Below, in pieces: positions 10,279 to 36,721 of a DNA stretch of 64,000 nucleotides. The notes under the pieces were generated by a model. That model did no database searches and was not told the origin of the DNA. It saw only the letters and a program-made list of their open reading frames with translations. The stretch is from Amoebophrya sp. A120 (Eukaryota; Protista; Dinoflagellata), in contig CAJINV010000004.1 of NCBI GenBank assembly GCA_905178155.1, positions 5,868,828-5,932,827 on the forward strand, read 5' to 3'. Position 1 is the stretch's first letter. Each line of letters opens with the position of its first letter. The translations under genes were made by a program, and so were the position numbers.

Positions 10279-10435
10279 GGGTTTGGGTTGCATTTGCTGA
10301 TTACATATTGATTATCGTTTTCGATTATGATTTCGCTATCGGCTTCACCATTCCGCGGGGTTTGGGTTGCATTTTCTGATTACATGTTGATTTCGTTGTC
10401 GATTATGATTTCGCTATCGGCTTCACCATTCCGCG
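10279..10435. repeat. Two-copy tandem duplication, ~79-bp unit
   Basis: gggtttgggttgcatt...ggcttcaccattccgcg occurs twice, downstream of gene 2. Confidence 0.85.
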
Positions 10436-10582
10436 AAGTAGGGTGTGCTTGTGCTTCTTTGTCGTTCTTCGTAGCATCTTCTTCTGCGATGCGGGTGTAT
10501 CAGGACCTGTTGGCAAACGTAAAATCTGTGCCGCGCTGAAGCTGATAGATCATCGTCAACGTCATCCATGAATGTATACTAC

Positions 10583-13500
10583 TTACACTCCTTTACTTTT
10601 GTCCTCGGCGCCATCACTCTCGTCAGAGTCGCCATCCAGGATCCCAACTTCTTGCAGCGCGGCGGACCGCACCCAATGTTGGAGGAAAAAACAACCTCGG
10701 TTCCAGTAGGAATCCGTGAATGGCGAGGGCGGGCGCTGTTGAGTATGATGATGGGAACAAGTTAATCCTTTAATGTTAATTCGCAGTTTTTATATGGACA
10801 TGTTGTGTTGTACTTGTAGGAGGCATGTAGTTGAGTCGACGTCATCGACGTCATGCATGATGAGAGATTTAATTCTAGTTCTAGATTTTCTACCACTACT
10901 AGAAAGAGCGAGCTAGTACTGCGGCAGAGTAGTATGATTCTGATTGTCCATGGAAAAATGAAAATCTCCTGTACCCATATTTCCGGGTTGATGAGCCGAC
11001 TGGCGGGATCGTGAGTGAAAAACACCTGGTGGCGAGAAGAAGTACTACAACTGTCGGCATTTTTTTCTGCACTCCATTCCCCCGCCGCCGCCCCCACTGC
11101 GTCAGAGAAATCATAACAACCAACAGCTCTTGACACGGTCATTCGCAAGCGCATATCTCCCTGTAGCTCCTCTTGGTTTCTTTCGTGGTCTACAACAAAC
11201 GACCCGGTTTTATTATTTCGTTCTCCTGCAGCTTCAGCTTCTGCATTTCCATTTCCATTTGAACTACTGCTGCATTTCCATTTGTCCAGAATTTTCGCGA
11301 CCACCACCGCTTTCTCACTCTCCTCGACGAGGAAAATCTGAACACCAACCGCGTCGTTCTATGAGGGTGCACAACTCCCCCGCCCCCTCGTTTGTATAGC
11401 ATGAACGGCAATACAAGCATCAGCAATCTTGCCGGTTTTGCATGACAAATTTGCACTGGAGTGTAGCGCTATTTGGAATACCAAAACTTGTCATGCAATC
11501 AGTGCCACGAGGCAAAGGGTGGATTTGGTAGTTTGCATGACAAATGAGGGGGAGGGGGAGTTGTGCACTCTCATACGTTCATCTTGGAAAACAGATGCAA
11601 CAGCTTGTGCCGCTGCGCGGCGTCCCGCTTCGCCTGTGCAGACGGCCACCCGGAGGCCACCGGGGGCGAGGCGGCCACGGCAAGGACCTGATCCGCGGTC
11701 AGAAAAAAACACTTCTTCTGGTGAGGATGTTGGCTGGCCGGTGTGGCTCCGGAACCTTGTTCTGGTGAGGGACCACAAGGAGATGCTTTATTTGCCAAAC
11801 CGTTGTTCCTAGTGCTAGAACCATGATATGCCTCGGATTCGATGCACACCAGAATTTCCTTCCTGCTGCTGCTGGTTCTCGTGTCGATCCGACCAGCCGA
11901 ATTACACAAAGACGCTGCTCGCAGTAATTCTGCAAGGGCCGCAACCACTTCCGTCGTGAGCAATCGGGCGGGAGTCAAGAGTTGCCGAGCTACCTTGGTT
12001 CGCTCCAAATCGTAGGCAACCCTGGAGATGTGAATTTGCCGCTCGGGTGGTTGGATAATCGCACTACTGCCTCCCTGCTCGTGTGCATTTTTCACGACCG
12101 TCGAAGTTGCAGTTTCGTCTTGGTGTTGTCTACTTTTCTGAAATAAACTTATTTTCGTCTTTCCTCCGCCGGCCCCCGCACCAGTCGTTTGATGTGCCGT
12201 ACTGGCACTGCGTCTGCCAGCTCTACTGGCGCCCAGTCTACTCAACCCGTCTTGGCTCACGAAAAAATGCTGCACCTTGTTCAGACCAGAAGTAGAACCT
12301 CCTCCTGCGCCAGGTCCTTCACGCGAAGCCGTGTTCTTGCTACCAAAGAACGACACGAAAAAGTTCGATAAAAGTTTCCCAAGCGTGCAATCGACACTCG
12401 TATCCGCGGCGTCCAAAAAGCCCGGGGTGCCGGAGGGATTCGCCACAAATCGGAGTTCTTGTGGGAGGAGGAGCGGCGGTCGTGTCGGGTTGCGATCTTG
12501 ATGGTCTTCTTCACAAGGTAGCTGCACTGGAATATTGATTTTGTTCTCCAGCTCGTCGCCATCACGCAGACCAGAAAGAACAGGTGGCGGATGGTCATGG
12601 CCCTGGCGGCGACCGTTGTTACTTTCGTGGTCCTCCTGTGCGGCCTCAACGCCGCGAGCTGGTGCCCCAGCACTGTTCTGGACACCCTTTATTTTCGAAA
12701 TGCTTGCTCCTGCTTCCGTGGTAGTGCTGTTTTCTTCCATAGTTGCGCCGAAATCTGGAACTCCACCTTCGCGGGAAGGATCTCCTTGCGAGGATGCTGG
12801 CAGCGAGGAACGACCTTCGTCTTGAAGATCTCGCGCTCGTGATGACGGAACAATGTCAACTTCCAGAAACAGTGAAGAAGTGCAATTCTCGTGTAGAAGA
12901 CTTCTGTAGAAGTACTGGTCCTCGTGATCCTGGACGTCACCAAGGCTCATTTCCTGTATCCCTGTTCCTTCTCCCTCCACCTGGGGAGATGACCCGATAT
13001 TACGCGAGCAGCTCCCGGGCGTTGTACTTGTTCCTGGGGTTGAGGAGCTCCTAGAAGATGAAATTGCGGCAGTACGACTTCTTTTGGGACTGGTACACTC
13101 TTTTCTTTCTTCGCTTGACTGCTCATTTTTACCGTGGGCTTGATGTTCTTCATATTGCGCGCCGTGATGTTGCCTACTGCGCTTTTTCCTCGGGGGCAGT
13201 TGAGTTGTTCTTCTTGGAAAATATCCAGCCTTACAATCTAGTTCATCTTTTATTACGCGCTCGAACTTTAAGAACTGCAAGCTTTGGTCGACAAGTTTCC
13301 TCGCGAGGCTTGTTTCGTCGATGCGAAAACCGCCGCTGCCTTTTGGATCGGAGGAGATCAGGGGCGACGCCGTGCTGCCAACGGGAGTTCCAGCAGAAAA
13401 GAAAGATTTATCCTGGTTATCTACCAAGGAGCCCATGATATTACTAGCACCACAGCGTCCATTTGTACTTGACGTTGCAGAACTCGTCGTCCCCGAAGCA

Positions 13501-16500
13501 GTAGAGTTCTGGCTTTGCCTATTGTTTTTGCTGTCCGCTTTGTTATTCTTGTTCTTCTTTTTTTGTTTGCTATTAGATGTTGTAGCTGTAGTTGTCGCTG
13601 CGCCGCCCTTGTTGCCGGAGCCTGCGTTGTGTCCTCCCCCCTGGAGGCCGCCCCCCCCTGGAGGTTGTGACTCCTCAGGTGCTGCGCATCGAGTGCTATT
13701 ATTTTCAGAGCGGTTGTTCGGGTCGTCTTTAACATGGCAAGGACCGACAGGATTCGCGCTGCAGTTACTTATCCCACTGTTTGCCTCATTGCGTAAAAAC
13801 GGCGCCACCTTTTCCAAGTATCGCTTCTTCTTGTGGTAGTAAATTTGCTTTCCGACAAGAGTGTCGAAGAGTTTACTGTTGTCGACCAATTGTGATTGAG
13901 GTGGTTCATCTTTCGACGCAGCAGATGTCCTTGTTGGCAAACCAGTACTAGTACTAGAAGAAGAACCACCGTGCTGGAGTTGATCTTGACCGTGATGGAA
14001 ATAAACCTTCTCCTCGCCAAACGTTTCCGCCGTCATGGGTGCTTGTTCCAGAAATTTGCACTCCGCTTCCAGTTATGCATTGAAAAAGTAAAAGTATCGT
14101 ACTCGTATAAATGCATTACAAATTTACCCAGCGTGAGAAATAGAATTTGTAATGCAGATTTGCCTTGGAAACAAGATTTGTAATGCAAGACTTGCATTTG
14201 TACGAGTACGATACTTTTGGTTTTGCAGTTGATACCAGTCGGCGGTTGTAGTGCAACAGCTCTTTCAACGAGGGGGCGACCGGCTGCCAGGCTTCGTAGT
14301 AGCATTCTACTGACTATGACAGTGCACAACTCCCCCTCCCCCTCATTTGTATAGCATGAACGGCAATACAAGCACCAGCAAGAGTGCCGGTTTTGCATGA
14401 CAAATTTGCACTGGAGTGTAGTGCTATTTGGGCTACCAGAACTTGTCATGCAAACAATGCCAACAGGCAAACGCAAAGGGTGGACTAGGTATTTTGCATG
14501 ACAAATGAGGGGGAGGGGGAGTTGTGCACCGTCATACTGACTCTACTTCAGACGAACTGGCTTGTTCCTCGCCCTGGCTTCTATTGCTGTTGCAGGTCGT
14601 GCTATCGGCGCAGTTTTTGCTCTTCTTTTTCCGACGTTTGTTCATGTTCCCCAGAAAAGATTTACTTGCTCCTGCTTGGCCTGGTTCTCTACCTGTGGTC
14701 CCGTTTCTGGCTGTCGCGCTTGTTTTTTCATTCACCGTGTCAACAGTCGCGTCTTCTCCTGGCGGTGTCGAGGTCGACTTCACGCTAGTGCTGCTCGAAG
14801 TAGCAGCCGAGTCTTTGCCTCGTGCTCGTCCTGATGTTAAGCCGCTACTTCTACAAGCGGCATCATTTCGTCCCTGTAGTAAATCCTTATCGCCGTTTTG
14901 CTTTTGGTGACCACCATGATCACCGCTGCTCCTATTCTGAGAATTCTTTCTTACATCGTCATCCACCACCAGTCCCGACGCGCTGGTGGTGCCAACCGAT
15001 GCAGCATAGCAGTTGTTGTTATTTCTGTCAACAGTTTCCTTCTTCGTCGCCTTCCGTTTCCTTTCTCGCTCGGCCAGGTCGTTCATTTTGTGGAGAAATT
15101 TGGACCCTTGTATTTCCGGCGAAAACCAGTTTCTACTTGATGTTTCCGCCTTTTGTTCTTCGCCGGCTGGTAGGTTCTTTTTCCGGTCTTTGATGGTACT
15201 GGACCGGTAGTTCACGGTCTGCTCCAACAGCCGGCGTCCCCACCATCCCTTGGCCAGGAAATGCAGAACATCCGCGACGTCGTCTCGGTTGTATTGCGGC
15301 GGCGGGTTTATTTGGGCGGCAGTCGATGAAACATCTGCGGTTTCTGCGGAAGTGGTCACGGAGTTTGTATTGCCGCTTGCCGAAGAACCTGTTGAGCCAG
15401 AAGATGAACCATTGCTCGCCGCTCCTCCTCCTGCGTTGTTCCTTTTATTTTTGGAATTGTTCCGAGAAGTCGTGACAACCGAGTTCTTCGCTCCACTTGT
15501 TACTACACCACCTCCCGTAGAAGTTCCAGGGCCAGCCGTAGTGGCGCCGGCGCCCGGAGGGGTAGACATAGAAGAGGTAGACGCCGCGCCAGTACTTCTA
15601 GAGCTTGCCTTGGATGTCTTTCCCGGAGGACCTCCGCCGGTGGACACATTAGAAGCCGTCGTGTTGTTTTGCATGGGCGTGCCACAAGACGAGGATGTGG
15701 AGCCCGGACTAGAACTAGTTGCGTTGTGGTTTTGCGCATCGTGGTGTCCATGCGTGGTACAAGTAGTACCTGCCCCCTCGGTCGATTTTGCATTAGAACT
15801 ACTAGTACCACCACCACCTACGTCCCGCTGCTGGTCTTCCGAAATGCGCTGCTTTTTTTTGTCGCCCGCCCGTTGCTTCAGGTAGTTGCTGAGCCACCAG
15901 TCCGGCGAAGAGTTGTCCAGCATCCTGTGAAAATCGTAGCCCGGGTGCTGTGGTGGAGATGCCTGCTGGTGGCCACGACTCTGAGTCCTGCAGGAGTTCT
16001 GTTGCTGCTTTATTTCTTCACTAGTAGATGTGGGCGTAAGTTCAGTATTTGGCTTCATCCCAGGTTGTTCAATATTCGACTTTGGTGCACGATGAAACAA
16101 GCTCCTTTCCTTGATGTCGCTGCCGTCGAGCATGACCATCTTGTGCACCAGCGGCGCGCGGCGGTGGCGGTTCCGGGCGTGTTTATTAACGTTTCCATTC
16201 TTTCCCCGACGTCCGACTTTGGGAAGCTGCACCACGTCATTACTAGCTTCACTGCTCGCGGACGAAAATGATGCTGTGCTCGTCTCGCTAGAGGACGAAA
16301 AGTCGTCCTGCTCGGAATGCGCCACAATTGAAGAAGGGGCTGTTGAGTCATCTTCTGAGTCGCTAATTTTACAAGAACTTCCTGTTCCTTCATCTTCGCC
16401 CGAGGACGAGCTCGTCATGCCGTCGACATCAGAAGAACTTGCTTCAGTGTCTGAGGAACGATTTGCGCTGCGGCTGTCGCTGCTTGCTGATGTGCAGCCT

Positions 16501-19500
16501 GCTTTCTCGTCGCTGCTGGAGCCTCCAAAGGCCCTCGAGCCAAGACGACCAACATTTATTTTACCACGATTGACCCTGTGCTTGTCTCCGGGTTCTTCAT
16601 CTCTGTCTGTCCTTGTGCTTCTATTCATAGCTCCACCATGGTCCTGTTTATTTTCATGATTCGTCATCTTTTGAGTACTGTTTTTGTTGCCTTGCTTTCC
16701 TGCTGCTGTCTTCCTTCTCCTCTCGCGAGCACGAAGACGCCGGTCGTTCTCGTAGTTTCTCTTGCTTTTTCTCTTCTTTACTCCTGCCCGACCCAAGACT
16801 TTGATCGTCACATCCTCGAACGTGTTTATGGTGCGGTAGAGTTTCCTCCGGCGGTCCAGGTCTAGCAAATGCACCAACAAGGCATCCAGCATGCGCATGA
16901 TTAGCAGGAAGATGGTTTCGATCAGTTCGCAGATGACGTCCAACAAATCGCTGCACAACAGCCACGACGTCCGGCTTTCCCCGGGTGCCGGCAGCGGGCT
17001 GCTTGACAGCCGGAAGAAGGTGGGCGGCTTGGGGTTGGGCAGCTGCCCGGGGCCCTGCGATTGGGCCAGAAAGGGCGCGCAGGCCCGGGTCACGGCATTC
17101 TCGATCGACCGCAGCTTTCGAGACCGCCAGGACTGCGAGATTTTTTTTCGAAGGAGCTCTGCTTCATGTTCCTCTTTTGTTTTAGCACTAGAACCACCTC
17201 CTCCACCAGGGAATACAGCTTGATGCCCAAAAAGGGTCGTTATTCTAGTGCCGCCAAGAATTGTTCCTTGTGCAGCACTTCCGGCGGTAGACGAAGAGCT
17301 AGACTGTTTTGGATTTCCTCCCGTAGTACCAAGAGCTGCCGTGTTGATCGCCTTTATTTTTCGGTTATTCCTGGCGGCCACGCCCGCGGAGCTCCGTCGG
17401 TTGTTGGAGGACCTAATCCCGCCGCTCGCCGCGCCACCGCCGCCCTTGCCTTCGCTCTGTGCCGCTTGCCCGGTCGCGCCAGCACAGGAGGTAGTACTCG
17501 TGCCTGGTTTCTTGCTGTCTGCAGCAGTGCCGCTCGTCGTTCCAAATGTTGTACTCGACACGACCCCTTCTTGCGCGACAATCTGCTGCTCTGCTTCACT
17601 CGTCCCTCCGAAAAGTTTTTTCCGCAGCATTTCTGAGTCCTGCGCCTCCTCGGCGTGCCGGCGTAGCGTGCTGGCGATGAAGTCGTGTGATGAAGTCTTC
17701 GAACAAGATTCGCTACTAGCAACGGCGTTTTTCGACGTCTTGTCGCATTCGTCTCTTCGATTCAGAACGGCCAGCAACGGAAAATCTTCGTTCCTACTGC
17801 AGGATGTTGTTGAATTTGCGTCGCTCTTGTCCTCCGCTCTGAGAACGTCGATTGCAGAAGGACCACTCGATGATCTGCAACTGATTTGTTCCAGCTCCAG
17901 TTTCGTCCGCTCTCGGTCCTTCTGCTTCTGCCGGGGGCTCCGCCCGCTGCCGAAGGGCGGTCGCTTGCGCTCTACCACCTTCTCTTCGCCGGGCCGCGTC
18001 GAGGTGGACCAGAGCACCTGCAGATCGCCCTCACCCTCGCCGGACACAATGGTCTCGAGGAAGTTCTGCGACTCGGGGCTCGAGGGGGCATACACTTGCC
18101 GCATGCGGGCGCGGATCGTGGCGCAAGTGTCCTTATGCATTGCAAATGTGTCTGGGTCTGCGTCTGGAAACTTGTGATGCTAAAATGTGGATGATGGAAA
18201 CATTTTGGAAAGCTAGCACAAGCAGCCTAGCATGACAACTTTCCAGAACGCTTTCTCATAGGTAGTCCGCATGAGAAACTGCGTTTTTGCATCACAAAAA
18301 TGGCTGCCACTTTTGTCGGTTATGCAATACAGATCTCCCACGAATGTGGAGCTAGCATGACAGATTCCAACTTTCCAGACCCAGACATATTTGCTTTTGA
18401 TAGTCCTGAAAAAACATCTCGTCATGCTCGTACAGCCATGCCTATCCACAGTGAACTTCCCGCACACGTACAAATGCGGTCTCTGCATGGCAAAACTTGG
18501 CTTCGATCCTAGTTTAGCATGACAAGTTTCACACTTGAAATTGGGGAAATTTGTGATGCACCTTGTACATGTACGGGAAATTTGTATTGCATAATGCCTC
18601 CTCCGAACCATCCGAGTACGAATGATCCTCGTCCTATACAGGAAAAATAAACACCCATCGCATCCTCATTGAATTTCTGCATGACAAACACAGTATTTTT
18701 TGCATGTTTTGCATGACAAATCATTGGATGGGGATGGGTGCTTTCTCGTGGATACGTCCGAGCTGTCGGTCGTTCTCTCTTCTGAAGAGCTGGAGGTGGA
18801 AACTGAAGCAGATCGGTTATGGGTGCCTTGTTTTCCTCCGCGGCTTTTGCTCTTGTTTCCGCTAGATAATGTTGAAGTAGTTGCTGTGCCACCTCCACCG
18901 TTCTTCCCCTTAGTACTCTTGTTTCGGAGATTGCTCTCTTTATTGTTCTTCCGCTCCGTCGCAGCTTTCTTGGCCGCTTTGCTCTTACGGCTGTTTTGCT
19001 TACTGCTGATGGCCTCGCGGATCTGCTGCTGCACGGTCTTCGTATTCTCGATCGGCAGGGGATTTTTAGCAGTAGAGGCGGGGTGCTTGTTGTTCGTACT
19101 ATTGCTGCTAGTACTCGAGGTTGAAGACCCTTTCGTTGAATTTGTGTTTGTTCCGTTGACTGTGCCTGCTTTGCTGTTCGCGTTCCCACTAGTAGTACCA
19201 CGACCAGGAGTGCCTTCTGTTGTGCCGGCTGCAATACTGTTACAACTACCTGACGAGCCAGAACACAAACTGTTGTTCTTCTTATTTCCACTAGACGAGC
19301 CAGCTGCAGCTCTCTTCCCTCGCGATCCGCCCGCGGCGCTGCAGCTGTCCAAGGCAGCAGCGGTGCCCGCCGTAAATAGCACGCGGGTGACGGTGATCGG
19401 GTCCCCTGTGCCGCGCATGGCGAAAACGCAATGCTGCCACACCTGCTCCAGCTGTCTGCTGATCGAACTGCACGCGTGTTCCAGCGCACACGCGTTTCCG

Positions 19501-22500
19501 CCGACGTACTTGACCAGAAACGCGGGCAGTAAATACGCGGCCAAATCGACGCAAAACCACCCGTACCGCAGGTTTTGAACGTCCTCGAAGGAAGCAGTGC
19601 TGGAAGAACTTGAATTGCTAGAACTACTAGCGCCGTCCTCCTGCGACTCATCATCCTGCCCGTCCTTCATCTTCGCGTCCTCCTCCTCCTCCTCCCCTGC
19701 CCCCGTCGCATCGGGCCAGGAAAACAGGCACCGCACGTTGTAGGTGGTGCCGCGGTTTAGAAACAAACTGTCATTGTGGTGGTAAAACATCTGGTGGCCC
19801 CCGCCAAAGGAGTTGTCGAAGCGGCCGCGCAGAAGGGTGTCGAGAAAGCTCGACTCGACCGACGTCGGAAGCTTTTGGCAGCTTGAGGATGTTTCAGATT
19901 TCGTATTTGATGTAGTAGTTCCTGAAGCTAGGCTGGCTAGTGAACTGTCCAAACTTCTTATTTCCTTGACATTTTTATCGCCGTCCTGACCTGAACCATG
20001 GTGATCCACAACAGCGGTTGACGGAACTGCCGCGCGTGTAGTCGCGGGGGCCGTTTTCGAGCTCGAGGACAGGGGATGAGCCAGGGGGTTTTTGTTTTTC
20101 AAAGTGGCAACACTTGTTGCACCTGCTTCGTCGTGGTAGTCCACCCCACGATTCGCACTCGAGGATCCTGCTGCTGTGGATGTGGTCGTAGAACTCGACG
20201 ACGCCGTTGAATTTTGAAGATTCACCGCGCAATTTTCTGTGCTAGGTACAAAACCACGTGGTCCTGGTCCCGCTGCAGCCGCATCATTCTTCATCCCTGT
20301 GGTCTCCGCAGAAGATGTAGCCGAAACGACGCTCCTCTTTTTCGCTGCGGCCTTGATGAGCGCATTTGCGAGAAGTGAATTTTTACCAACAACAGCAGCA
20401 GTTCCGGGCGCAGCTGCGCCGATGGCGGACGACCCCGAGGCTGTCGTTCTGGAATTATCTTCTGCACGATTAGAAGTAGGGCCAGCTGGTGTTGTAGAGA
20501 GCGCGGGTGGTCCTGGTCCACCGTCCGTGTTGCAGACAACACTAGGTGCTGATTTGTTCTTGTTGTTACACGACCCTAGTGGCTCCTTTTGTGGTGAAGA
20601 GGTAGAAGATCCTCCTCCTGTGGGGGCCCCACTGGTGCTTTTTAGCACATTTTTCGTGCTGCTGCTGGTGTTTTTCATTTCAGTCATTGGCTTACTGTTG
20701 CTTTCGTCCATGAGCTGCCGCATCCGTCGGATTTCCGCCGCTGACAGATTTGCGGATTCCGGATCGTGCGCGTCCCACTGCACAACTGTGCCGGTTACTC
20801 CCATAACGCACCCCCATGCTCACAAATGAAAAAACTCCGAAAGGATTCCGACGAGATTACGAAACTGTGAATGAAAATTGCTGCGGAGGGACTTGCCAAA
20901 AATGAGCCGAAGACCCTCCGCCCGCTCCTGATCGAACGGCCCGCCCCTGTGTCGTTTTGCGATCGCGTTGGCCTCTGCCGCCTTTGCCAAGCCATCGCGG
21001 TCGAGGAAAAAGTAGATCGCAGAGAGCAAGTCGCTGCCATGGTCGTAGACCATAACTTTAGCTGCAACAATCTATGCTCATAACTTTAGAAACAAAGGCG
21101 CTGGCCATAGGTTATAAAAAAGAGCAACCAGCACGACCGAGATAGAAACAGGAAGGGACTGGACGCAGATAGAAGACGAGAGCAGGCGGGCCGTTCCGGT
21201 TTTCCATCCCGCTTTCAGCGAGCGGCGGACATAGGTGGGGAAAAGGCGAGCCGTATGGACGTGGTGCTGGGCGTGCCTGCGCACACCACGACAAAAGGCG
21301 TGAAGGATCTAGTTTCGAAATGGAGAGGTTATTTTTTCAGACGCAAACACACCGAAGTCAAATTCGAACAACATCTAAAACTACTCCAAATTCCACAAAT
21401 ACGCATTACAGATTTAATATTCCAAGTCTAGTCTTTCCCAGTTTCTAATGCTATTTCGCGTCTTTTCATATTCCTAACCGTGTCCGTAGCCGTGGCTCAG
21501 CTCCTTGAAAGTAGTGAAAAGGCAGTTTGTAATGCGAATTCAGCGTAAATCAGACCTAATTTCTTTGCTTTCTTCTTCTCTTCTTTTCTCTTTCCTTTTC
21601 TTTTCAATCGCGGCAAGAATTTGCTTGCTTTTCCTTGGTTTTCGGTCTTTTCTCTTGCTCGATCGATTTCTTGGCTTTTCCTTATCATCCTCTTCATTTT
21701 CTGAGTTTTGATCTATGAGAAACAGCGTTCAAAACTAGTTTTCAATTACACAAACCGCCCCCAACGCTTTTTCTCATGATCAAAATCTAAAACCACAAAT
21801 CTTACAGAAGCTTGAAACAGAAACGGATGGTCTAAATCCTACATGAAATTCTAAATCGTAAATCCAAATCTGTATAGCATAAATCCATAAACAGCTTCCA
21901 TAAACTTCGTCTTCCAATCCTCATCACATCATCTACTTCCATCGCAGCATCGATTTCTTCTCATCGCAAATCCGAAACCAATACCGTAACGTCGTCAGCA
22001 AATCCGTATCATGCGCACAGCGAGCACCAATTGAAGGATCCCATGTCCAAATCCATCTTCGTCCTTCTTATCGCAAATTCTCCCGTCGTACTCCAAAGCC
22101 GGTCGTAGTTCAAATCCAGCAACACAAATTCGAATTGTCGTCGCACAAGATCAAGTTCGTCATCTCGTAGTCCAACCATTTATCGAAATCCAGCATGACA
22201 AAGTCGCATCCGCGTCGGCTCCTGTCCAAAACAAATTGTTCGCCGCATGTACTCCAGAAACAAATCTTCCTTCCACACCGTATCAGCACCGGGATCGCGT
22301 AAATCTGAAGTCGTCTCATTCTCGAGTCGCGATTGGTATCGGAAGGTCTGCATGCGATGGTCGGGAACAAATTCTTCTCCGGCCGAAAAGCGAAAACAAA
22401 TCTTCGTCGCCCCGAGCGTAAAACCGCATTACAAATTTCGCAATAGGAATCGAACTCGTGCTGCAATTTCCCCAAACGAACCCGAAGTCAGGCTCTTGTC

Positions 22501-25500
22501 GGTCGGAGTACAAAAAGTCGTCGAAAGATACAGGCGTAGTCCGTGGTCGTCGAGTAGTCTTAGAACCGAAATCGCACGGGGTCATCGACATCTGCATCGT
22601 CCTTACGTCAACGGGGAAAGAACGGCGGTCGTGGTGCAGAAGCAATTTTTCGTCGCAAGGGTGCCAAAGTCGTACAGAAATTCATCGGCCGGCTGTCGGT
22701 ACCATCGGCGCGTCACATCGAAAACGAAGATCGTGCTGCCGTCGGTCGAAAACAAATCTCTCCAGCATCGGCAGGTGGCACTGCCCCCTAACGCCATACG
22801 AAGCTCGCCGTCGTCCTCCATCCGAAAACTCCAATCTGTCATGCTGAACGGAAGCAGATTCAAACTCTGCCGCGTCGGTGTCTGCGAATCCTGAAAACCC
22901 TGCATCCGAAAAACTGCGCGTCTTGCCATCGTCACTGCTACTGCTGATCCTGCGTCTAAATTTCCGTGTCTCCTAGTCCCTGCATTTGAAAGTTGTAAAA
23001 GTTGAAGTCAAAGTCGCTCCGCGCCCCCATTGCTGTGTTCCAAAATCTTACATCCGAAAGACCGCAGCACTCGTTGTCACCACTGCTGCTGCTGTTCGCG
23101 CTACTATTACTGTATTCCGTTTTCCTTTTTCGTTCCTGCGTCTAAAAATCGGAGTCAGTGCTGCGTGCTGCTTGTTGTCGAAATCGAAATTGTTCTACGC
23201 CCCCATACTGCTCTACGTTCTTGCTTCGCGGTGTTTCGCGTTCGTATCGGCGACCTCTTCCTACTGTTCTCTGCTCTGCGTCCTGGTTTTTGCTTTTGCT
23301 TTTCTGTTGCTGCTTTGCTTTCATAGTCTATGCCCGTGTTTTAGTGTTGTCCCGAGTTTTCTTCTTGTTGTCCTGGTGCTTTCGCACCTCTGCCCGAGTG
23401 TACTCGTCAAGGTCTACTAGTGCCTAAAAGCCCGAAACCCGAAGTCAAATTATCATCGCCGTCATTCGTCATCTACTCTTCTTTCTTCATCCCGAACACA
23501 AGTGCAGATCTATCTTCAGCAGGTAGTCATCCCCGAAACCCGAGAGGACCAGAGGACCAAAATCCTAAAACTGCGAACACAAACCTCGAGCCCCGAAGCT
23601 AGAAATCTTGAATCCCGGTAGGTCAGCGTGTATCGGGAGCCTGAATCAGGACGGAACACCAAGCGAAGAAGTTGCAGTCACCGACAAAGTCGACCGCAGT
23701 ACGACTACACGCCCCCTGACTGGAACTTCTTCTTCATCTTCTTATCTTCATCACTGCGTCTTCGAAAAAGCAACAGCTTCTACCGGCGTTGCGAACACAA
23801 AGGGGGAAGGGGAAAAGTCGCAGTCTTGGGTTTCGCCCTGTACTACTGCTGTCGCCCCCGTTGCTACAAGTCGGGGTCGTAAGTAGTTACGCCTGCTACA
23901 ACCGCTTCATGTCGAATCTGGCCGCAGGCTCGAACTGCGAAAGCAAAGAAAATCTCTTTCATGCATCTAGGTATGTACTATATTGAGCTGTCTACATCTG
24001 TGCCGCTCTCCTTTCTTCGTCGGTACTGCTACTGCTGATCTACCTATCCAGCCCGCTCTTCGTCTAAAATCTTGAGCCGGGTTCTCTCGTGCGAGACTGG
24101 AATAGTACTCCATCTTCGTAACGCCGTGGTTGAAATTTGGAGGCGGAAATGCAATCCGAATTACTGCTGCGTCCGAAAGAAACTCTTACTCTTCATCTTC
24201 ACGCCAACGGTCTCTGCACGGAGTGCCGCTTTCTCCGTCTCCGCTGTTCAAAACAAATCCTGCATGTCTACTACTGTAAACGGCCGCTCCGCTCTGCACT
24301 GCTACTGTGAGGGAGGGAGGTCTTCTGCTCCTGCTGTGCTCGAAACAAATCTCGAAAAAGTAGTAGTACCCACAAGCCCTGGTCTCTACTTCTACTCCCA
24401 AATCAAAAACACCTGCACCATAGTCAAGCCCGCTTCTACCTGCTTCTGCAAAAAAAAACACATCGCCGCATCTTCATCCCCGTCTCTACGTAGTGAACTG
24501 GTGAACAGGCTACCGCCGTCTTGTCGAGCTACTCCCGTTTCGTTAGTGGGCAAAGCAAAGTAGCAAGCAACCACTCAAAGCCTTCTGTAGCTGTTCTCCG
24601 TCACTGTCGGTCTTGCTGGAATAGTCGCGCGCCTATAAATCTGCATCGGGTCCTGCTGCAATACATAAATCGAAAATCTTCGCTGCCATCGCTTAACCGT
24701 AACCGCAGAAAAACAACATCCGTATCCGTAAGTCGAAAAAATCCCATAAATCTTGGAACGTACCCCAGGCGCATCTGTAAACTGTTCTCCCGCGAACTTT
24801 GTGGCGACTGGGGTCTCGTTAAACAAATAAATCTATCCAGTGGCAGAAGAACTCCTTGTCCTTCTCCGTATAAAAAATCTTTTCCCGTGGTCTAAAAAAT
24901 GTAAGCGGCTTCCGGTTCTGGGACTGGTCTGGTTGATCTCCGTTCTATTCCTTTTCAGCATCGTCTAATCCAAATTCTTTGCGCGGTTCTGTTCCATTAA
25001 GAGCTCTAATCTCCATTGTTCTCGACTTCACCTGCGGGCCAGGTGTGTTTCCACCTCTTGCTGAAGCAAACTTTTCCCCCTTCATGTAATACTGTTCTTG
25101 CGGTTTCTTTGCGGCGTTCTTGTGGTGCTTCTTCTCCTTCTTTAGCGCCTTCTCTTTCTTCCTTCGGTTCTTCGAGGCCATTGTAGTGGGGAATCTAACT
25201 AAAACAGTAGAAAGCATCTTCGCAGCTGTGTCGAACTATGCCCAGGTTCTCCACCAATTGAAGGATCTAGTTTCGAAATGGAGAGGTTATTTTTTCAGAC
25301 GCAAACACACCGAAGTCAAATTCGAACAACATCTAAAACTACTCCAAATTCCACAAATACGCATTACAGATTTAATATTCCAAGTCTAGTCTTTCCCAGT
25401 TTCTAATGCTATTTCGCGTCTTTTCATATTCCTAACCGTGTCCGTAGCCGTGGCTCAGCTCCTTGAAAGTAGTGAAAAGGCAGTTTGTAATGCGAATTCA

Positions 25501-28500
25501 GCGTAAATCAGACCTAATTTCTTTGCTTTCTTCTTCTCTTCTTTTCTCTTTCCTTTTCTTTTCAATCGCGGCAAGAATTTGCTTGCTTTTCCTTGGTTTT
25601 CGGTCTTTTCTCTTGCTCGATCGATTTCTTGGCTTTTCCTTATCATCCTCTTCATTTTCTGAGTTTTGATCTATGAGAAACAGCGTTCAAAACTAGTTTT
25701 CAATTACACAGGCGCGCGCCCCACACCATCGGGGCTGCGTGCACACGCGCCAGCCCCGAGCTGTTTACGCAGGCACCCAACGCGCGAAAATGTGGGCCGC
25801 ATACCATCGGCGCTGTGTGTACACGCGCCAGCCCCGGGCGGATTACGTAGGCGCCCAACGCGCAAACGCGTGGGGCACCAACATGGCAACGAGGCCGCGG
25901 CGGCACGCCGATGGTTTTAGAGGGGGAAGAGGCGGGCCGGTTTGCTTTCTTTTTACTTTTCCCCAGCATATCAAGCAAGCCCCGTCCGGCCGTTTTCGCA
26001 ATGAGGCCGATGGGCTGAGATGCGAACCAGGCGAGCCGCTCTGGTTTTCTCGCTTTCCGCGAGCGGTGGACTTAGGTGGGGACAAGGCGAGCCGTATGGC
26101 TGTGATGCTGGACGTGCGCGCACCACCACAAAAGACGCGCGCCCCAAGCCATCGGGTCTGCGTGTACACGCGCCAGCCCCGGGCTGTTTACGCAGGCACC
26201 CAACGCGACAAAATGTGGGCCGCATACCATCGGCGCTGTGTGTACGCGCGCCAGTCCCAGGCGGATTACGTAGGCGCCCAACGCGCAAACGCGTGGGGCA
26301 GCAACATGGCAACGAGGCCGCGGCGGCACGCCGATGGTTTTAAAGGGGGAAGAGGCGGGCCGTTGGGTTTCTTTTTACTTTCCCCCAACATACCAAGCAG
26401 GCCCCGACCGTTTTCGCAATGAGGCTGATGGGCTGAGATGCGGGCCAGACGGGTCTAATTCTACAGCGCTCTAACATACAACAATAAATGGAAACACAAC
26501 GGACAGCCGGGCTGTGCTTTACAGATCGAGAGAGACTACCAACAAGATAGACAGCCGCGTCGTCGGGTTATGTAAGCGCTGCCAGACCGGGGAAAATTGG
26601 GCGCCCAGGAAACGGCACGAATACCATCGGGGGTAATGTTACCCACGACGGCACTGCGTCCGATGTTTTTTCTAGGCCTTCGCTGTTTTGGTCGGGTTTG
26701 CATGATGTGTGCCCTCGTTAATAGCTTTTTTTCAGCCTACCCAAAATCCCCACGAAACGCAACTTTTAAGAATCCGAAGAGACTCCGAAAAGACTCCGAA
26801 AAAGGCGTCGGGAAGATGCGAAAAAAAGCGACCGCCTTCATCATAGCAGGCGGCGAAATTTTCGGAGCGAAAAAATGGGAGGCAGTTTCGGATTCTTTGC
26901 GGAGTCGCGGATTTGCTGCACTCCGGAGACGCGGACGCGATACACTCCTTTGCGGAACATGAAATCGCCCGCGACTTCCAGAAAAGAAGAAAAGCCAAAC
27001 GGCTCGCCCTGTTCCCGCCTAAGCCCGTCGATCTTCTTGCGAAGGAGATCAGGGCTGGCCTGAGATGGTGGGCGGGAGAAAGAAAATGGCCAAACGGCGC
27101 GCCTTGTCCCCCTCTAAAACCATCGGCGGGCCGCCTTGATATGCTGCTCGCACTTTTGCGCGCCGGGGGGGGCGCCCCCATATCATAAACAGGCCGGGGG
27201 CGCGTGTACACGCCGCCCCGATGGTGTGGCGTCCGCGCCTTTTGTGGTAGTTGTTAGCGCACGCCCAGCATCACGGCCAAACGGCTCGCCTTGCCCCCCT
27301 CTAAAACTACCGGCGTGCCGCCGCGGCCTCGTTGCCATGCTGCTTGCCCACGAATTTGCGCGGCGGGCGCCTACGTAATCCGCCCGGGGCTGGCGCGTGG
27401 ACACACAGCGCCGATGGTATGCGGCCCAACCTTTTGCGCGGTGGGCGCCTGCGTAAACAGCTCGGGGCTGGCGCGTGGACACGCAGCCCCGATGGTGTGA
27501 GGGGCTGGCCTTTTGTGGTGGTGTGCGCACGCGCAAAAGCACAGCCATACGGCTCGCCTTGTCCCTACCTAATTCCACCGCTCGCCGAAAGCGAGAAAAC
27601 CAGAACGACGCGCCTGGTTCGCATCTCAGCCAATCGGACGGCCGCATTGCAACAAGGCAAAGGGCCCGCCTCTTGTTCCCTCTCTATCTAAAACCATCGG
27701 CGAGCCGCCGCGGCCCCGTTACCATGCTGCTGCCGCACGCGTTTGCGCGCTGGGCGCCTACGTAGTCCGCCCGGGGCTGGCGCGTGGACACACAGCGCCA
27801 ATGGTATGCGGCCGACGCTTTTGCGCGCTGGGTGCCTGCGTAAACAGCTCGGTGGGGCGCGTGTACACGCAGCCCCGATGGTGTGGGGTGCACGCCTTTT
27901 GTGGTGGTGCGCGCACGCCCAGCAGCACAGCCATACGGCGCGCCTTTTCCCCACCTAAGTCCGGCGCTCGCTGAAAGCGAGAAGCCCAGAACGATCCGCC
28001 TGGTTCGCATCTCAGCCAATCGGCCGCATTGCAAAAAGGCAAACGGCCCGCCTCTTCCCTCTCTAAAACCATCGGCGTGCCGCCGCGGCCTCGTTGCCAT
28101 GCTGCTGCCGCACGCGTTTGCGCGCTGGGCTCCTACGTAGTCCGCCCGGGGCTGGCGCGTGGACACACTGCGCCGATGGTATGCGGCCCACACTTTTGCG
28201 CGTTTTCGCTGCCATGTGGTCCAGACCTGCCGCGGGCCGCTTTTTGTGGACTGCGCAAAACGCCGGCAGTTCAAAGCTGCGAAGCGCTTTTTGTTAATGT
28301 TGCTGCGCCAACGAACCGAGTCGCGGCGGAGCGATTATCTTCTGAACTGCGAAGAAGCTTTCTCGAGTCGCTGCCCCGTTGTTTTTTGTCTCCACTTTCG
28401 GATTGTTGTCGTAATGTTTTCGGAGTTTTTCGGACGGCCTTGGAAGGGGGTGTGTTACGGGAGTAAGCCGGCGACTGTGGAGATCGTCGCGACTTCAATG

Positions 28501-29378
28501 GTATTCCCCGAGGAGGACGTGGACGTGGACGGCGACGGCCAGGAACCGATTCTGTGGTCGTTCGACTGTACGTCAGTTGATGGCGCTGCCGGTGCAACAG
28601 GATTTTTGAGACTGACACTCGAGGCGGAAGATGAATCAGGACTACCTCCCAATAAAGATGCCACTAAATTATTTTCAACACGACCTGCAGATCTAGTTGC
28701 TGCAGCACTCGCGGCGGCGGCCTGTTGTAGGATCCTGGACCTTGCCTCAGCGTACTCAGACACGACAGGCGGTGTCGTGGTGGCAATGGTTGTTGTGCTA
28801 GAAGTGGTCGCAGAATTCTTGGTAGTTGTGTAATTATTGGTACCACCTCCACTTGCAGCCGGTGGGACTTGTTGCTGTGCTTCATCTGCAGCAAGCGGTC
28901 GCGCATGACCACTATTGTGCTGCGGCCCTTTAGAATTCTTCCCCGGCGATGTTGTTGCCGATGCGAACGTCTTCTTGCCTCCCCCGCCGGCACCTCCAGA
29001 TGGAGCCCGAACAGGATCTAGTACTACCCCACCAGTCGCAGTTGCGCCGGTCGACGTCGTTGAACAAGACGACGTTGTTGTACTATTCGTCGTGGTCGTG
29101 CTAGAAGTTGTGGTTGTTGTTTCCACCAGCGGTCCGTTGCAACACGGACATTTATTCGACGGGTTTTTTTTCAACGTGGCGCTTTTATTCCCCCCGGCTC
29201 GCTTGGCGGCCTTCTGCAGGATGGCGGAAGCCAGCCGTTCCTTCGCGGAGAGCTGCTTCGGGGGGTGATGATTGTCTGGGTTATTGTTGTCCTTGTGATT
29301 CGAGCAACCGGGTGTGTTACAACCGGTACGCACGTTGCTTGAAGAGGTGGAGGAGGAGGTGGTGGCACTGCCGCTCAT
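10583..29378 (-). CDS. Very large (~3,000 aa) Ser/Thr/Gly-rich hypothetical protein (gene 2)
   Basis: ORFs 28455-29444, 18666-20804, 14532-18140, 11571-14036 and 10762-11307 join in frame across the 7.67-kb insert, four small introners and GT-AG introns (e.g. junctions TVAG|TVVQW and KMN|DAVGVQ). The last exon is inferred. Confidence 0.65.
11360..11575. mobile_element. Introner family C, 216 bp
   Basis: TSD cgttc/cgttc. Confidence 0.9.
14074..14234. mobile_element. Introner family A, 161 bp, with a 6-nt insertion in both TIRs
   Basis: TSD ccagt/ccagt. Confidence 0.9.
14315..14536. mobile_element. Introner family C, 222 bp
   Basis: TSD ctgac/ctgac. Confidence 0.9.
18134..18402. mobile_element. 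Introner family B, 269 bp, inserted at a splice acceptor
   Basis: TSD gtcct/gtcct (minus-strand AG|GAC). Confidence 0.88.
18406..18755 (-). other. GT-AG intron with degenerate introner-like interior
   Basis: GAC|GTATCC...TTTTTTCAG|GAC, phase 0; several gcatgacaaa/tttgtnatgc motifs inside. Confidence 0.6.
21301..25710 (-). mobile_element. Non-autonomous LTR retrotransposon (LARD-like), 4,410 bp
   Basis: 452-bp TG...CA LTRs at 21301-21752 and 25259-25710; 4-bp TSD ggcg; PBS at 25238-25256; G-rich PPT-like tract next to 21753; no intact gag/pol ORF. Confidence 0.88.
25711..26450 (+). repeat. GC/CpG-rich ~400-bp satellite, left arm (begins at ~21186-21300, before the LTR insertion)
   Basis: Recurring cacgcgccagccccg, gggccgcataccatcggcgctgtgtg and aggcgagccgtatggc units. 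Confidence 0.85.
26990..28205 (-). repeat. GC/CpG-rich ~380-bp satellite, inverted right arm (about 3 units)
   Basis: Reverse complements of the left-arm units (cggggctggcgcgtgg, ctctaaaaccatcggcg). Confidence 0.85.
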
Positions 29379-30286
29379 CTTGATCTTGTTGTGCCCTCGC
29401 AGGTAATAAACCACAACCTCAGGAACTTCGAACTTTGATATCAAACCATCTTATGTTTCACTTCACTCACTGTAGAAGTCTTCTACATGCTCTTAGGAGG
29501 AAAAAGGAAAGGCTTTAAGTACTTTATAAATTCAAATAATGAAATTCTATGTTATTTCGGGGCGATCGCAATCGGATTTGCTTCTGGCTTTTTTCTCCTT
29601 TGACAGCAACAAGCTGCTGCCTAGCCGCAGTCACGTGTTTTTCTAGATGCTACAAAGGGCCGCGCCGTACAAGAACGCATACAACTACGTGAACTCTTGC
29701 TCTTCAGAAACAGTTGTGTATTTGGCGGGGCGGCGACACAAGTGTAAGTGAGTCCCCCTGTTTGTTGCTGGTGATAAAGATAACTCGAGGCAACTACACG
29801 GACGTAGTTGACACATCTTTTTCTTGTTGCACAGGCCGGCCCCACGACGCTGCAAAAGGTGATCGGCTTGAAGTAGAAAAGCCAAAGCTACACGCGCAGC
29901 TGTTCCTTCATCAAGATCCAAGAACAAGCCGAGAAGGGAGCATCAAACAATGTCCCAGGGACAACAAAAATCCACCAAAGAAGATAATCTTCCGCTCATT
30001 GCGCATTTGGATTATATGAGCAGCTACTTCATCTTTGGATCTTCTTCATCTCCACGATCTGCACGAAGTTATGTGTGCAGCATATCATGCGGGTTCTCCA
30101 CTTTTCCTGCAATGTTCTTCTCGTGCTAGTTCATCAACACACTCTTGGCGTGTATATTTTTACTCACCACGACGACCTTTGAAGACCACGTTCGCAAAGC
30201 TGTGAAAAAAAAATGGTCCTTTTGCTCACCTCCGCCCAATTCAAACATAAACATTCATAACATCATCAAAACTACCCTCGTCCCTA

Positions 30287-36200: not shown

Positions 36201-36721
36201 TGAAGATGTCCTCCACCTCGGCTGCGTAGGAGAGTACTCCGAAAACCAGGTGTACTGCCTTGTAATAGGCGACAAAAATCAGCGGGTGCACCCAATTCCG
36301 CAGCTGGTAGCAATTGTCCCATTCCCAGGTGTAGTGCCCGACGCCGAAGACCCACCGGTGCGCGATCTCCAGGCTTTGCCACTGCTCGTCTGGCGCAAAA
36401 CTCTATGGCGTTCTCAAATGTTACATTCTCAACCGTTACATTGATTTGTGATGCAAGAATGGGAAAAGTGAAAGCGGGGAGGTTGCACCTGTAGCACTGC
36501 AAATTCCGCACCGATTTAGGTGGTGTCTAGCCTTTCGCAAATTTGTCATGCGAAGCAGCTAGATCGTGTGGATGATGATAGTGCTTTTGCATGACAAATT
36601 CATGTAACTACGGTTGAGAACGTAACGTTGGGGAACCCCATAAACTCGTGGCAAGCAGTGCGCCATTCAGGCTACGCCACAGAAAAAGCAGGGAAAAAAG
36701 TTTCAGGCCGCTCATGGTCAT
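30287..36721 (-). CDS. PIGB: GPI mannosyltransferase 3 (PIG-B/Gpi10, GT22 family)
   Basis: After introner removal: FAPDEQWQSLEIAHRWVFGVGHYTWEW...LRNWVHPLIF, YGPRVLVQA, YGTHNIYWYF, SHKEHRFLMP, HQRG, CHEMPLYSYLH, FLDCSP. Ends LPFARVWK*. Confidence 0.9.
30358..32172. mobile_element. Introner family B (~252 bp) interrupted by a nested element
   Basis: TSD gtagt/gtagt; frame restored (VLSYY|IFSLIP). Confidence 0.85.
30380..31937. mobile_element. 1,558-bp non-autonomous TIR element with subterminal AAAACACTATCAC repeats
   Basis: TIR tatccggctgaaaaaaactatcactatcacaaaa / ttttgtgatagtgatagtttttttcagcgcgata; TSD tctgg/tctgg. Confidence 0.88.
32322..32472. mobile_element. Introner family A, 151 bp
   Basis: TSD gccgc/gccgc. 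Confidence 0.9.
32785..33022. mobile_element. Introner family E (TIR TATGGCGTTCTCAA...TTACATTCTCAAC), 238 bp
   Basis: Imperfect TSD ccctc/ccatc. Confidence 0.87.
34664..34811. mobile_element. Introner family A, 148 bp
   Basis: TSD agagg/agagg. Confidence 0.9.
34884..35196. mobile_element. Introner family D, 313 bp (opposite orientation to the 7802 copy)
   Basis: Imperfect TSD ttcgg/ctcgg. Confidence 0.88.
35300..35554. mobile_element. Introner family B, 255 bp
   Basis: TSD gggag/gggag. Confidence 0.9.
35836..36062. mobile_element. Introner family C, 227 bp, diverged
   Basis: Degenerate TSD gcttg/acgtg; frame restored (PADT|LRMF). Confidence 0.8.
36404..36642. mobile_element. Introner family E, 239 bp
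   Basis: TSD aactc/aactc; restores ATS|FAPDEQWQ. Confidence 0.92.

What the first reader, a model, noticed from the sequence alone, without database searches (positions are those of the whole stretch)
20790..28471. A 7.67-kb 'mega-introner': TIR + 5-bp TSD element whose removal fuses two ORFs in frame
Seen: imperfect ~50-bp TIRs (TTACTCCC...GGGAGTAA) flanked by gccgg on both sides. Removing the element and one TSD joins ORF 28455-29444 to ORF 18666-20804 as ...ATISTVAG|TVVQWDAHDP, with no GT-AG at the boundaries. Both flanking ORFs remain open. Even without the nested LTR element it is ~3.26 kb, about 10-20 times the size of the small introners here. Inference: non-canonical splicing may depend on the paired ends and tolerate kilobases of cargo, giving other elements a safe place to insert inside a coding gene. 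It may also be a deletion derivative of the autonomous transposon behind the introners. Caveat: any clean insertion restores the frame on paper, so splicing is unproven.
Basis: partly seen in the sequence, partly recalled or inferred. Interest (0 to 1): 0.9.

Follow-up and report, generated by a model that had tools for sequence, protein, structure and literature searches.

The report
Giant nested transposon, likely an intron
A 7.7-kb transposon, with a younger retrotransposon inside it, sits in the coding sequence of a long gene of a parasitic dinoflagellate and is likely cut out of the RNA in the same unusual way as the gene's six small transposon-derived introns, but its splice junction has not yet been seen.

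Summary
The element is real. It spans 20795-28466 (7,672 bp), with inverted ends (19/21, then 30/38) and a 5-bp duplication. It holds a 4,410-bp LTR element with identical LTRs; the remaining 3,258 bp are non-coding inverted arrays. A database protein from this gene is labelled Amoebophrya sp. A120. Removing the element and six small introners gives a predicted 3,256-codon frame. RNA-like contigs (one sample) match both flanks exactly. Their lengths show the six small introners removed as element plus one duplication, even where an in-frame GT-AG lies beside them. A 1.8-kb nested introner in the neighbouring gene is very likely spliced. The 7.7-kb junction was not observed; contigs were too fragmentary to test it. 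In-frame GC-AG/GT-AG alternatives exist. My odds: precise excision 0.5, nearby canonical sites 0.15, split gene 0.3. Descent from the small introners' transposon is not supported: termini differ and no transposase remnant was found. Introners of 1.2-1.6 kb are already catalogued in this strain. Verdict: a larger, nested variant of a known kind, and a good test of splicing guided by paired ends.

The parts
20795..28466 (.). Whole TIR element, 7,672 bp, with nested LTR element; predicted intron of the minus-strand host gene
20790..20794 (.). Left copy of the 5-bp target-site duplication GCCGG
28467..28471 (.). Right copy of the 5-bp target-site duplication
20795..20867 (+). Left TIR: 21-bp block 20795-20815 and 38-bp block 20830-20867
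   Evidence: 19/21 and 30/38 against the right end; a related copy with another flank in contig X6 record 11, 3 differences in 110
28393..28466 (-). Right TIR: blocks 28446-28466 and 28393-28430
21183..21295 (+). Start of the left subterminal array, cut off by the LTR insertion
   Evidence: (80% to the ~418-bp unit)
25715..26451 (+). Rest of the left array, about two ~420-bp units with 78-bp subrepeats
26988..28204 (-). Right array, about three units, inverted against the left array (72-88% identity to the unit)
   Evidence: predicted to pair with the left array
21301..25710 (-). Nested non-autonomous LTR element, 4,410 bp: identical 452-bp LTRs (21301-21752, 25259-25710) ending TG..CA; 4-bp duplication GGCG (21297-21300, 25711-25714); PBS-like tract 25240-25256 and purine tract 21753-21765, which put it on the host gene's strand (inferred)
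   Evidence: longest interior ORF 231 aa, no Pfam hit at cut-off
28472..29378 (-). Upstream coding exon of the host gene, first Met at 29378; low-complexity Ser/Thr/Gly-rich
   Evidence: ORF 28455-29450; 0 of 1000 Markov resamples as long; identical RNA-like contigs 28515-28688, 28787-29021, 29047-29263, 29259-29449
18755..20789 (-). Downstream coding exon of the host gene
   Evidence: identical RNA-like contigs 18755-19393, 19659-19915, 19890-20361, 20369-20783; P0001 residues 1-221
18134..18754 (-). Three small TAT..ATA introners of the host gene (18635-18754, 18443-18593, 18134-18402) around two micro-exons; internal control
   Evidence: X3 record 10 has 71 letters between its pieces, 71 predicted; P0001 agrees for each
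14074..14536 (-). Two small introners of the host gene (14315-14536, 14074-14234); internal control
   Evidence: X3 record 9 has 73 letters between its pieces, 73 predicted
11360..11575 (-). Small introner of the host gene; internal control
   Evidence: X4 record 15 joins 11576 to 11354 with no letters between; the GT-AG alternative would keep 3 more

Best explanation
A non-coding 3.3-kb DNA transposon with inverted ends and a 5-bp target duplication lies in a coding exon of a long gene and holds a 4.4-kb LTR element, and the whole 7.7 kb is likely removed from the pre-mRNA as one non-canonical intron, taking one copy of the duplication with it and restoring the original reading frame.

Shown: the anatomy; both flanks open and present in RNA-like contigs; precise removal of the gene's six small introners. 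Strongly indicated: removal of a 1.8-kb nested introner next door. Inferred: cut-and-paste insertion by a transposase encoded elsewhere, and later arrival of the LTR element. Predicted: the terminal repeats and about 0.7 kb of inverted subterminal arrays pair in the RNA, bring the exon ends together and loop out the LTR element. Untested: the junction itself, and which enzyme cuts (a modified spliceosome, said to lack U1 in this genus, or a ligase route like SOS splicing).
For: (1) Same-gene control. X4 record 15 joins 11576|11354 exactly; X3 records 9 and 10 carry 73 and 71 letters between their pieces, as predicted for element-plus-one-duplication removal. Three of the six sites offer an in-frame GT-AG that would keep 3 extra letters, and it is not used (P0001).
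(2) Cargo tolerance. The 1,815-bp composite 30358-32172 holds a 1,558-bp TIR element. X3 record 13 and X4 record 21 leave the window exactly at 30357. Removing all 8 TIR elements from that gene gives a 1,030-codon open frame of a Glyco_transf_22 gene. The 3,017 further letters of record 13 would reach 36800, 79 nt before the Met at 36721.
(3) Both flanks are open, alike in composition and found in identical RNA-like contigs; joined, the gene reads 3,256 codons.
(4) Terminal duplex -63.5 kcal/mol against -33.7 +/- 4.8 for shuffles, 0 of 200 as low; the six spliced small introners give -37 to -81. The energy minimum of the full 7,719-nt transcript pairs the TIRs and arms and loops out the LTR element at 21289|25710.
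Against: Splicing of this element is not directly shown (the lays were no test; see Tried and rejected). Any clean insertion restores the frame on paper. All RNA-like contigs come from one sample; their RNA nature is the tool's guess, though they skip introns that X1 keeps, and they give no strand. Contigs on both flanks do not show a single transcript. The ends are TTA..TAA, not the TAT..ATA of every element whose removal is supported here, so the control may not carry over. The 5' partner of the 1.8-kb junction lay outside the laid stretch and is inferred from length. In-frame GC-AG and GT-AG sites lie within 21 nt. The LTR element lies on the gene's strand and could end or start transcripts. 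The host protein is low in complexity and has no homologue found outside this strain, so neither selection nor need for the whole protein can be shown. Energy-minimum folds of several kilobases are unreliable and follow from the inverted repeats by construction.
Confidence: 0.5

Rival explanations
1. The insertion split the gene and is not spliced. The upstream piece is read into the TIR and stops three codons in. The large downstream part is transcribed separately, from the nested 3' LTR, from the element's end or by leader trans-splicing, and starts at an internal Met about 20 codons after the junction.
For: A stop follows three codons into the TIR. The LTR element lies on the gene's strand and has identical LTRs, so it is young. 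A related copy differs by about 2% (10 substitutions and 4 gaps in 715), so the insertion may be too recent for the flanks to have decayed. The lost N-terminal part is about 300 low-complexity residues.
Against: Both flanks are open and present as identical RNA-like contigs. This genome removes TIR/TSD insertions routinely, including very likely a 1.8-kb nested one. The single-copy X1 contigs run unbroken into the element at both ends, so it appears fixed in that sample.
Confidence: 0.3
2. The element is an intron, but the spliceosome removes it at nearby canonical sites made by the duplication and the TIR: GC at 28468 with AG at 20798 (adds two codons) or AG at 20786 (loses two), or GT 28475 with AG 20778.
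For: Four in-frame GC-AG or GT-AG pairs lie within 21 nt of the precise cut. Co-option of splice sites from the duplication is the usual introner mechanism (PMC9860276 passages). A long intron may need conventional signals.
Against: At 3 of 3 small introners of this gene with a +3-nt GT-AG alternative, contig lengths or P0001 show the precise cut instead.
Confidence: 0.15
3. The element is an internally deleted copy of the autonomous transposon that mobilises the small TAT..ATA introners (the first reader's second idea; it concerns origin and does not exclude splicing).
For: Same 5-bp duplication length and T-A outer letters as the small introners; related copies exist elsewhere in the genome.
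Against: The termini share 2-12 of 21 letters with 11 other elements. No part of the core matches the rest of the window. No transposase hit in the core or LTR ORFs scanned. The core is mostly repeat arrays.
Confidence: 0.1

Closest known systems
Introner elements of Amoebophrya A25/A120 (Farhat et al. 2021, PMC7789003)
   Same: Same organism by the source label of P0001; inverted repeats at the ends, 3-5-nt direct repeats at the borders, non-canonical boundaries, no transposase, predicted hairpin.
   Different: That analysis kept only introns of 40-1,000 bp, with mean non-canonical length 240 nt in A120. A120 motifs begin TAT; this one begins TTA (the start reported for A25). It has long inner inverted arrays and a nested LTR element; splicing is unconfirmed.
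Kilobase TIR introner families of A120 (Gozashti et al. 2025, PMC12130899, Dataset S2: fam103 and fam135 about 1.2 kb, fam86 1.6 kb; fam38 0.8 kb with 5-bp TSD and TA/TA termini)
   Same: TIR elements of 0.8-1.6 kb that form annotated introns, many with non-canonical sites, in the same strain. Some large families carry reverse-transcriptase or integrase hits in their copies, which suggests nested cargo (my inference).
   Different: None of the 58 A120 rows gives a TIR element length near 3.3 kb. Consensus sequences were not seen, so membership of a listed family is not excluded.
Nonconventional introns of euglenids (review PMC11282704)
   Same: TIRs bring the intron ends together, TSD-like repeats at the junctions, non-canonical ends, lengths up to several thousand nucleotides.
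   Different: Unrelated lineage; pyrimidine|purine junction consensus and circular excised RNA are described there and were not tested here.
SOS splicing of DNA transposons (Zhao et al. 2025, PMC12779559)
   Same: Pairing of inverted terminal repeats triggers removal of a DNA transposon from mRNA without GU-AG.
   Different: SOS splicing is imprecise and often out of frame, whereas the controls here are precise. [quoted passage not shown]
Foldback-type DNA elements (such as Drosophila FB; recalled, no call)
   Same: Short terminal repeats followed by long inverted arms made of tandem subrepeats, non-coding middle.
   Different: Recalled duplications of FB are longer (about 9-11 bp); no sequence likeness was tested; FB is not known to me as an intron.

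Membership tests
Amoebophrya introner element (Farhat 2021) | 8-20-nt inverted repeat joining the two ends | tested here: met
   8 exact terminal pairs, 19/21 overall
Amoebophrya introner element (Farhat 2021) | 3-5-nt direct repeat at the exon/intron borders | tested here: met
   GCCGG on both sides
Amoebophrya introner element (Farhat 2021) | Repeated in the genome | tested here: met
   Related left end with another flank (X6 record 11); related 715-bp inner piece with 10 substitutions and 4 gaps (X1 record 7). Full-length copies and copy number not shown.
Amoebophrya introner element (Farhat 2021) | Intron validated by RNA junction reads | tested here: inconclusive
   No listed contig crosses the junction, but contigs break every few hundred bases in these exons; raw-read run X10 laid 0 reads
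Amoebophrya introner element (Farhat 2021) | A120 family motif starting TAT | tested here: not met
   Starts TTA; a tendency of the described families, not part of the definition
Non-autonomous TIR DNA transposon | TIRs, target duplication, no transposase | tested here: met
   no Pfam hit at cut-off among the core and LTR ORFs scanned
Non-autonomous TIR DNA transposon | Cognate autonomous partner and superfamily | not testable with these tools
   No whole genome held; 0 matches to the TIR motif in metagenome contigs
Non-autonomous TIR DNA transposon | Empty site in a related strain | tested here: inconclusive
   No orthologue found; no metagenome match to the flank; X7 and X9 do not cover the site
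Derivative of the transposon behind the small TAT introners | Shared terminal sequence | tested here: not met
   2-12 of 21 letters shared with 11 elements
SOS splicing substrate | Dependence on end pairing and on AKAP17A/CAAP1/RTCB; imprecise cuts | not testable with these tools
   Needs experiments; the precise controls differ from the reported imprecision
Non-autonomous LTR retrotransposon (nested element) | TG..CA LTRs, duplication, PBS, PPT, no intact pol | tested here: met
   the primer tRNA was not identified

The most novel reading that the evidence does not exclude
Amoebophrya removes TIR transposons from mRNA by pairing of their ends, precisely and with little regard to length or terminal letters. 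A 7.7-kb, two-layer element with TTA ends would then be spliced as cleanly as a 150-bp TAT introner, with the foldback arms acting as a zipper that loops out foreign cargo. Introners would be safe landing sites for other transposons inside coding genes, and the published introner census (40-1,000 bp) would miss a class of giant nested introns.
Probability: 0.4. Interest if true: 0.7.

Novelty: new variant of a known kind. Interest (0 to 1): 0.45.

Why it matters
How Amoebophrya splices tens of thousands of introns without GT-AG, and apparently without U1, is an open question (PMC7789003). This locus separates the candidate rules. It has paired ends and a duplication but different terminal letters, is about 30 times the usual length, and offers competing GC-AG sites a few bases away. 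One junction read decides between precise end-guided excision, canonical splicing and a broken gene. The controls found here already show precise removal in preference to an adjacent in-frame GT-AG, unlike the imprecise SOS splicing of animals. If the junction is absent, this is an ordinary nested insertion.

Tried and rejected
Runs. The look-up of sequencing runs: no RNA holder listed on record; four runs were guessed RNA, all of one sample. Of the 12 runs listed, 7 were laid (X1, X3 twice, X4, X6, X7, X9, X10). X10 (raw RNA reads, same species label) laid 0 reads: no test.

Junction. No listed contig crosses it. In one search, 235 joints and 9,901 pieces were not shown; the joint table held one unrelated row and 25 pieces were not shown. 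X3 breaks at four or more other places in the same two exons, so this is no evidence either way. The nearest contigs stop at 20783 and 28515. The listed RNA-like pieces inside the element are short or diverged copies; lack of cover there is not used as evidence. X7 and X9 gave only short matches and one identical 268-nt piece (19507-19774); none reaches the site.

Proteins. Searches for a model spanning the junction: downstream exon, lengths 1,188-3,390: none; lengths 372-1,187: only P0001, a partial model starting at 19418; upstream ORF, lengths 182-580: none; all representatives: one hit at E 7e-4, 23% identity over about 80 residues, a protein of repeated units that I rejected as chance. 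Models under 372 aa of the downstream exon were searched only through the representatives.

DNA. No whole genome. Metagenome scans with the TIR motif and with the left flank: 0 and 0. Four terminal motifs in the supplements of PMC12130899: 0 in 12 of 14 files.

Pfam. 11 and 18 ORFs: only Glyco_transf_22 in the neighbouring gene passes its cut-off; four weak hits (DUF702, Cas6_N, DUF7735, DAAF9) were rejected.

Rejected readings. A 4-bp CCGG duplication with uneven ends gives the same product and fits the window's 5-bp pattern less well. Length divisible by three is irrelevant, since any clean removal restores the frame. An assembly artefact is rejected.

Literature. 'introner + foldback + intron + terminal inverted repeat': 0 papers; 'Amoebophrya + SOS splicing': 0; 'Amoebophrya + introner' since 2023: 9 papers, 8 listed. 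Roy et al. 2023 (Curr Biol) was not read.
Full report
Observation. The element runs from 20795 to 28466 (7,672 bp) between two copies of GCCGG. Its ends match 19 of 21, and after a spacer a second block matches 30 of 38. The TIR motif occurs twice in the window against 0.01 expected. In a scan for TIR plus 5-bp duplication pairs it scores 17, while 0 of 20 block shuffles reached 15. None of the six equivalent registers is canonical, but four in-frame GC-AG or GT-AG pairs lie within 21 nt. Short-read contigs of DNA-like run X1 cross both junctions without differences, so the insertion is real; X1 may be the assembly's own source.

Anatomy. A 4,410-bp LTR element lies at 21301-25710, with identical 452-bp TG..CA LTRs, a 4-bp duplication, and PBS-like and purine tracts that put it on the minus strand, the host gene's strand. 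Its longest ORF is 231 aa and none scanned hits Pfam at cut-off. Without it the core is 3,258 bp. Most of the core is ~420-bp units with 78-bp subrepeats, about two and a fraction on the left and about three inverted on the right, 72-91% alike: a foldback layout. The LTR element interrupts the first left unit. Related copies exist: a left end with another flank (3 differences in 110; X6 record 11) and an inner piece with 10 substitutions and 4 gaps in 715 (X1 record 7). Three stretches of the LTR interior lie on X1 contigs as deep as the unique flanks (43-46 against 42-45), which suggests that the composite is peculiar to this locus; depth is a weak guide.

Organism and host gene. The only protein found for the downstream exon is P0001, labelled Amoebophrya sp. 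A120, a partial model identical over 221 residues. The window holds 27 small TAT..ATA elements of 145-326 bp with 5-bp duplications among the 111 rows, the pattern described for A120 (PMC7789003 section 11). It has no Pfam hit at cut-off, and no homologue outside the strain was found.

RNA evidence. Runs X3, X4 and X6 are one sample, kept as contigs and only guessed to be RNA; they skip introns that X1 keeps. X4 record 15 joins 11576 to 11354 with nothing between. X3 record 9 has 73 letters between its pieces and record 10 has 71. These equal the predictions for removal of element plus one duplication at all six introners (one singly, two and three as sums), and P0001 resolves the three singly. 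At three of the six an in-frame GT-AG would keep 3 more letters and is not used. Identical contigs lie on both sides of the large element: up to 20783 on one side, and from 28515 to 29449 in four pieces on the other. They give no strand and do not show one transcript. The junction itself was not tested by these fragmentary contigs.

Cargo control. In the neighbouring Glyco_transf_22 gene a TAT-type introner at 30358-32172 carries a 1,558-bp TIR element in its end repeat. Two RNA-like contigs leave the window exactly at 30357. Removing all 8 TIR elements of that gene, three of them with imperfect duplications and located by eye, gives a 1,030-codon frame. The 3,017 remaining letters of the 3,383-nt contig would then reach 36800, 79 nt before the Met at 36721. 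A 1.8-kb nested introner is therefore very likely spliced, although its 5' partner lay outside the laid stretch.

Mechanism. The two ends with their exon edges form a duplex of -63.5 kcal/mol against -33.7 +/- 4.8 for shuffles (0 of 200 as low), within the range of the six spliced small introners. In the energy minimum of the core, 813 of 1,251 pairs span more than 500 nt. In that of the full 7,719 nt the TIRs still pair, the arms zip over about 730 pairs, and the LTR element is looped out at 21289|25710. These are predictions that follow from the inverted repeats. I commit to: insertion by a transposase encoded elsewhere (inferred); later LTR insertion (inferred from identical LTRs and the split unit); removal from the pre-mRNA with one duplication, guided by end pairing (inferred from the controls; 0.5). 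Rivals: a split gene with separate transcription of the downstream part (0.3), and splicing at nearby canonical sites (0.15). Descent from the small introners' transposon is unlikely (0.1): the ends share 2-12 of 21 letters with 11 other elements, the core matches nothing else in the window, and no transposase trace was found.

Comparison with what is known. Farhat et al. (PMC7789003; seen: abstract, passages, sections 11 and 12, supplementary figure legends) define these introners but analysed only introns of 40-1,000 bp; the length-distribution figure could not be seen. Gozashti et al. (PMC12130899; seen: passages, first half of Methods, all 58 A120 rows of Dataset S2, first part of Dataset S10) list families of about 1.2 kb (fam103, 27 copies; fam135) and 1.6 kb (fam86), and LTR-derived introners in plants of about 6.7 kb. 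No A120 row gives a TIR length near 3.3 kb; consensus sequences were not in the 12 of 14 files searched, so an unseen match is possible. Euglenid nonconventional introns with TIRs reach several thousand nucleotides (PMC11282704, passages). SOS splicing removes transposons by end pairing but imprecisely (PMC12779559; abstract, passages, Discussion). PMC9860276 (passages) gives median introner lengths of 30-654 nt; PMC10666404 (passages) reports long introns with introner-like ends in Prorocentrum. Searches that found no paper are named in Tried and rejected. An unchecked note of this scan on a 17.7-kb odd-ended intron in another dinoflagellate (e1-7627401) points the same way but is not evidence.

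Verdict. It works, most likely, like an Amoebophrya introner and meets its structural definition; the defining RNA junction is untested, so it is filed as a candidate. Long introners and long paired-end introns are known, so the novelty lies in degree and layout: 7.7 kb, TTA ends, foldback arms and a nested LTR element, beside controls that show precise non-canonical removal. New variant of a known kind; interest 0.45.

Noticed in passing
30358-32172: Nested composite introner (1,815 bp) in a Glyco_transf_22 mannosyltransferase gene: a small TAT-type introner whose end repeat holds a 1,558-bp TIR element (30380-31937, duplication TCTGG). RNA-like contigs and frame fit its removal. An RNA-like contig (X3 record 14, 4,426 nt) carries a near-identical copy of the inner element's end at another locus.
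   Followed up: partly
11360-18754: Six small introners of the host gene are removed as element plus one duplication; at three of them an adjacent in-frame GT-AG is passed over. Two micro-exons of 36 and 35 nt lie between three of them.
   Followed up: yes
21301-25710: Young non-autonomous LTR element with a 96-codon lysine-rich ORF at its 5' end (24945-25235, minus). RNA-like contigs of diverged relatives (10-15% different) were laid on its interior.
   Followed up: partly
32785-33022, 34884-35196, 35836-36062: Introners whose two duplication copies differ by 1, 1 and 3 letters; the frame stays open when they are removed by the same rule, so a perfect duplication may not be needed.
   Followed up: partly
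20783-20794 and 28467-28480: The target site is partly palindromic (GCCGGC at its centre), so exon letters extend the predicted terminal stem by 3-9 pairs.
   Followed up: no
10400-29378: Predicted 3,256-residue low-complexity orphan protein; the one database model found covers only 461 residues of it, so such long genes may be under-annotated in this genome. The 3' end was not checked for further introns.
   Followed up: partly
29745-29833: Canonical-looking donor and acceptor on the plus strand between the two minus-strand genes; possibly a small antisense gene or chance.
   Followed up: no
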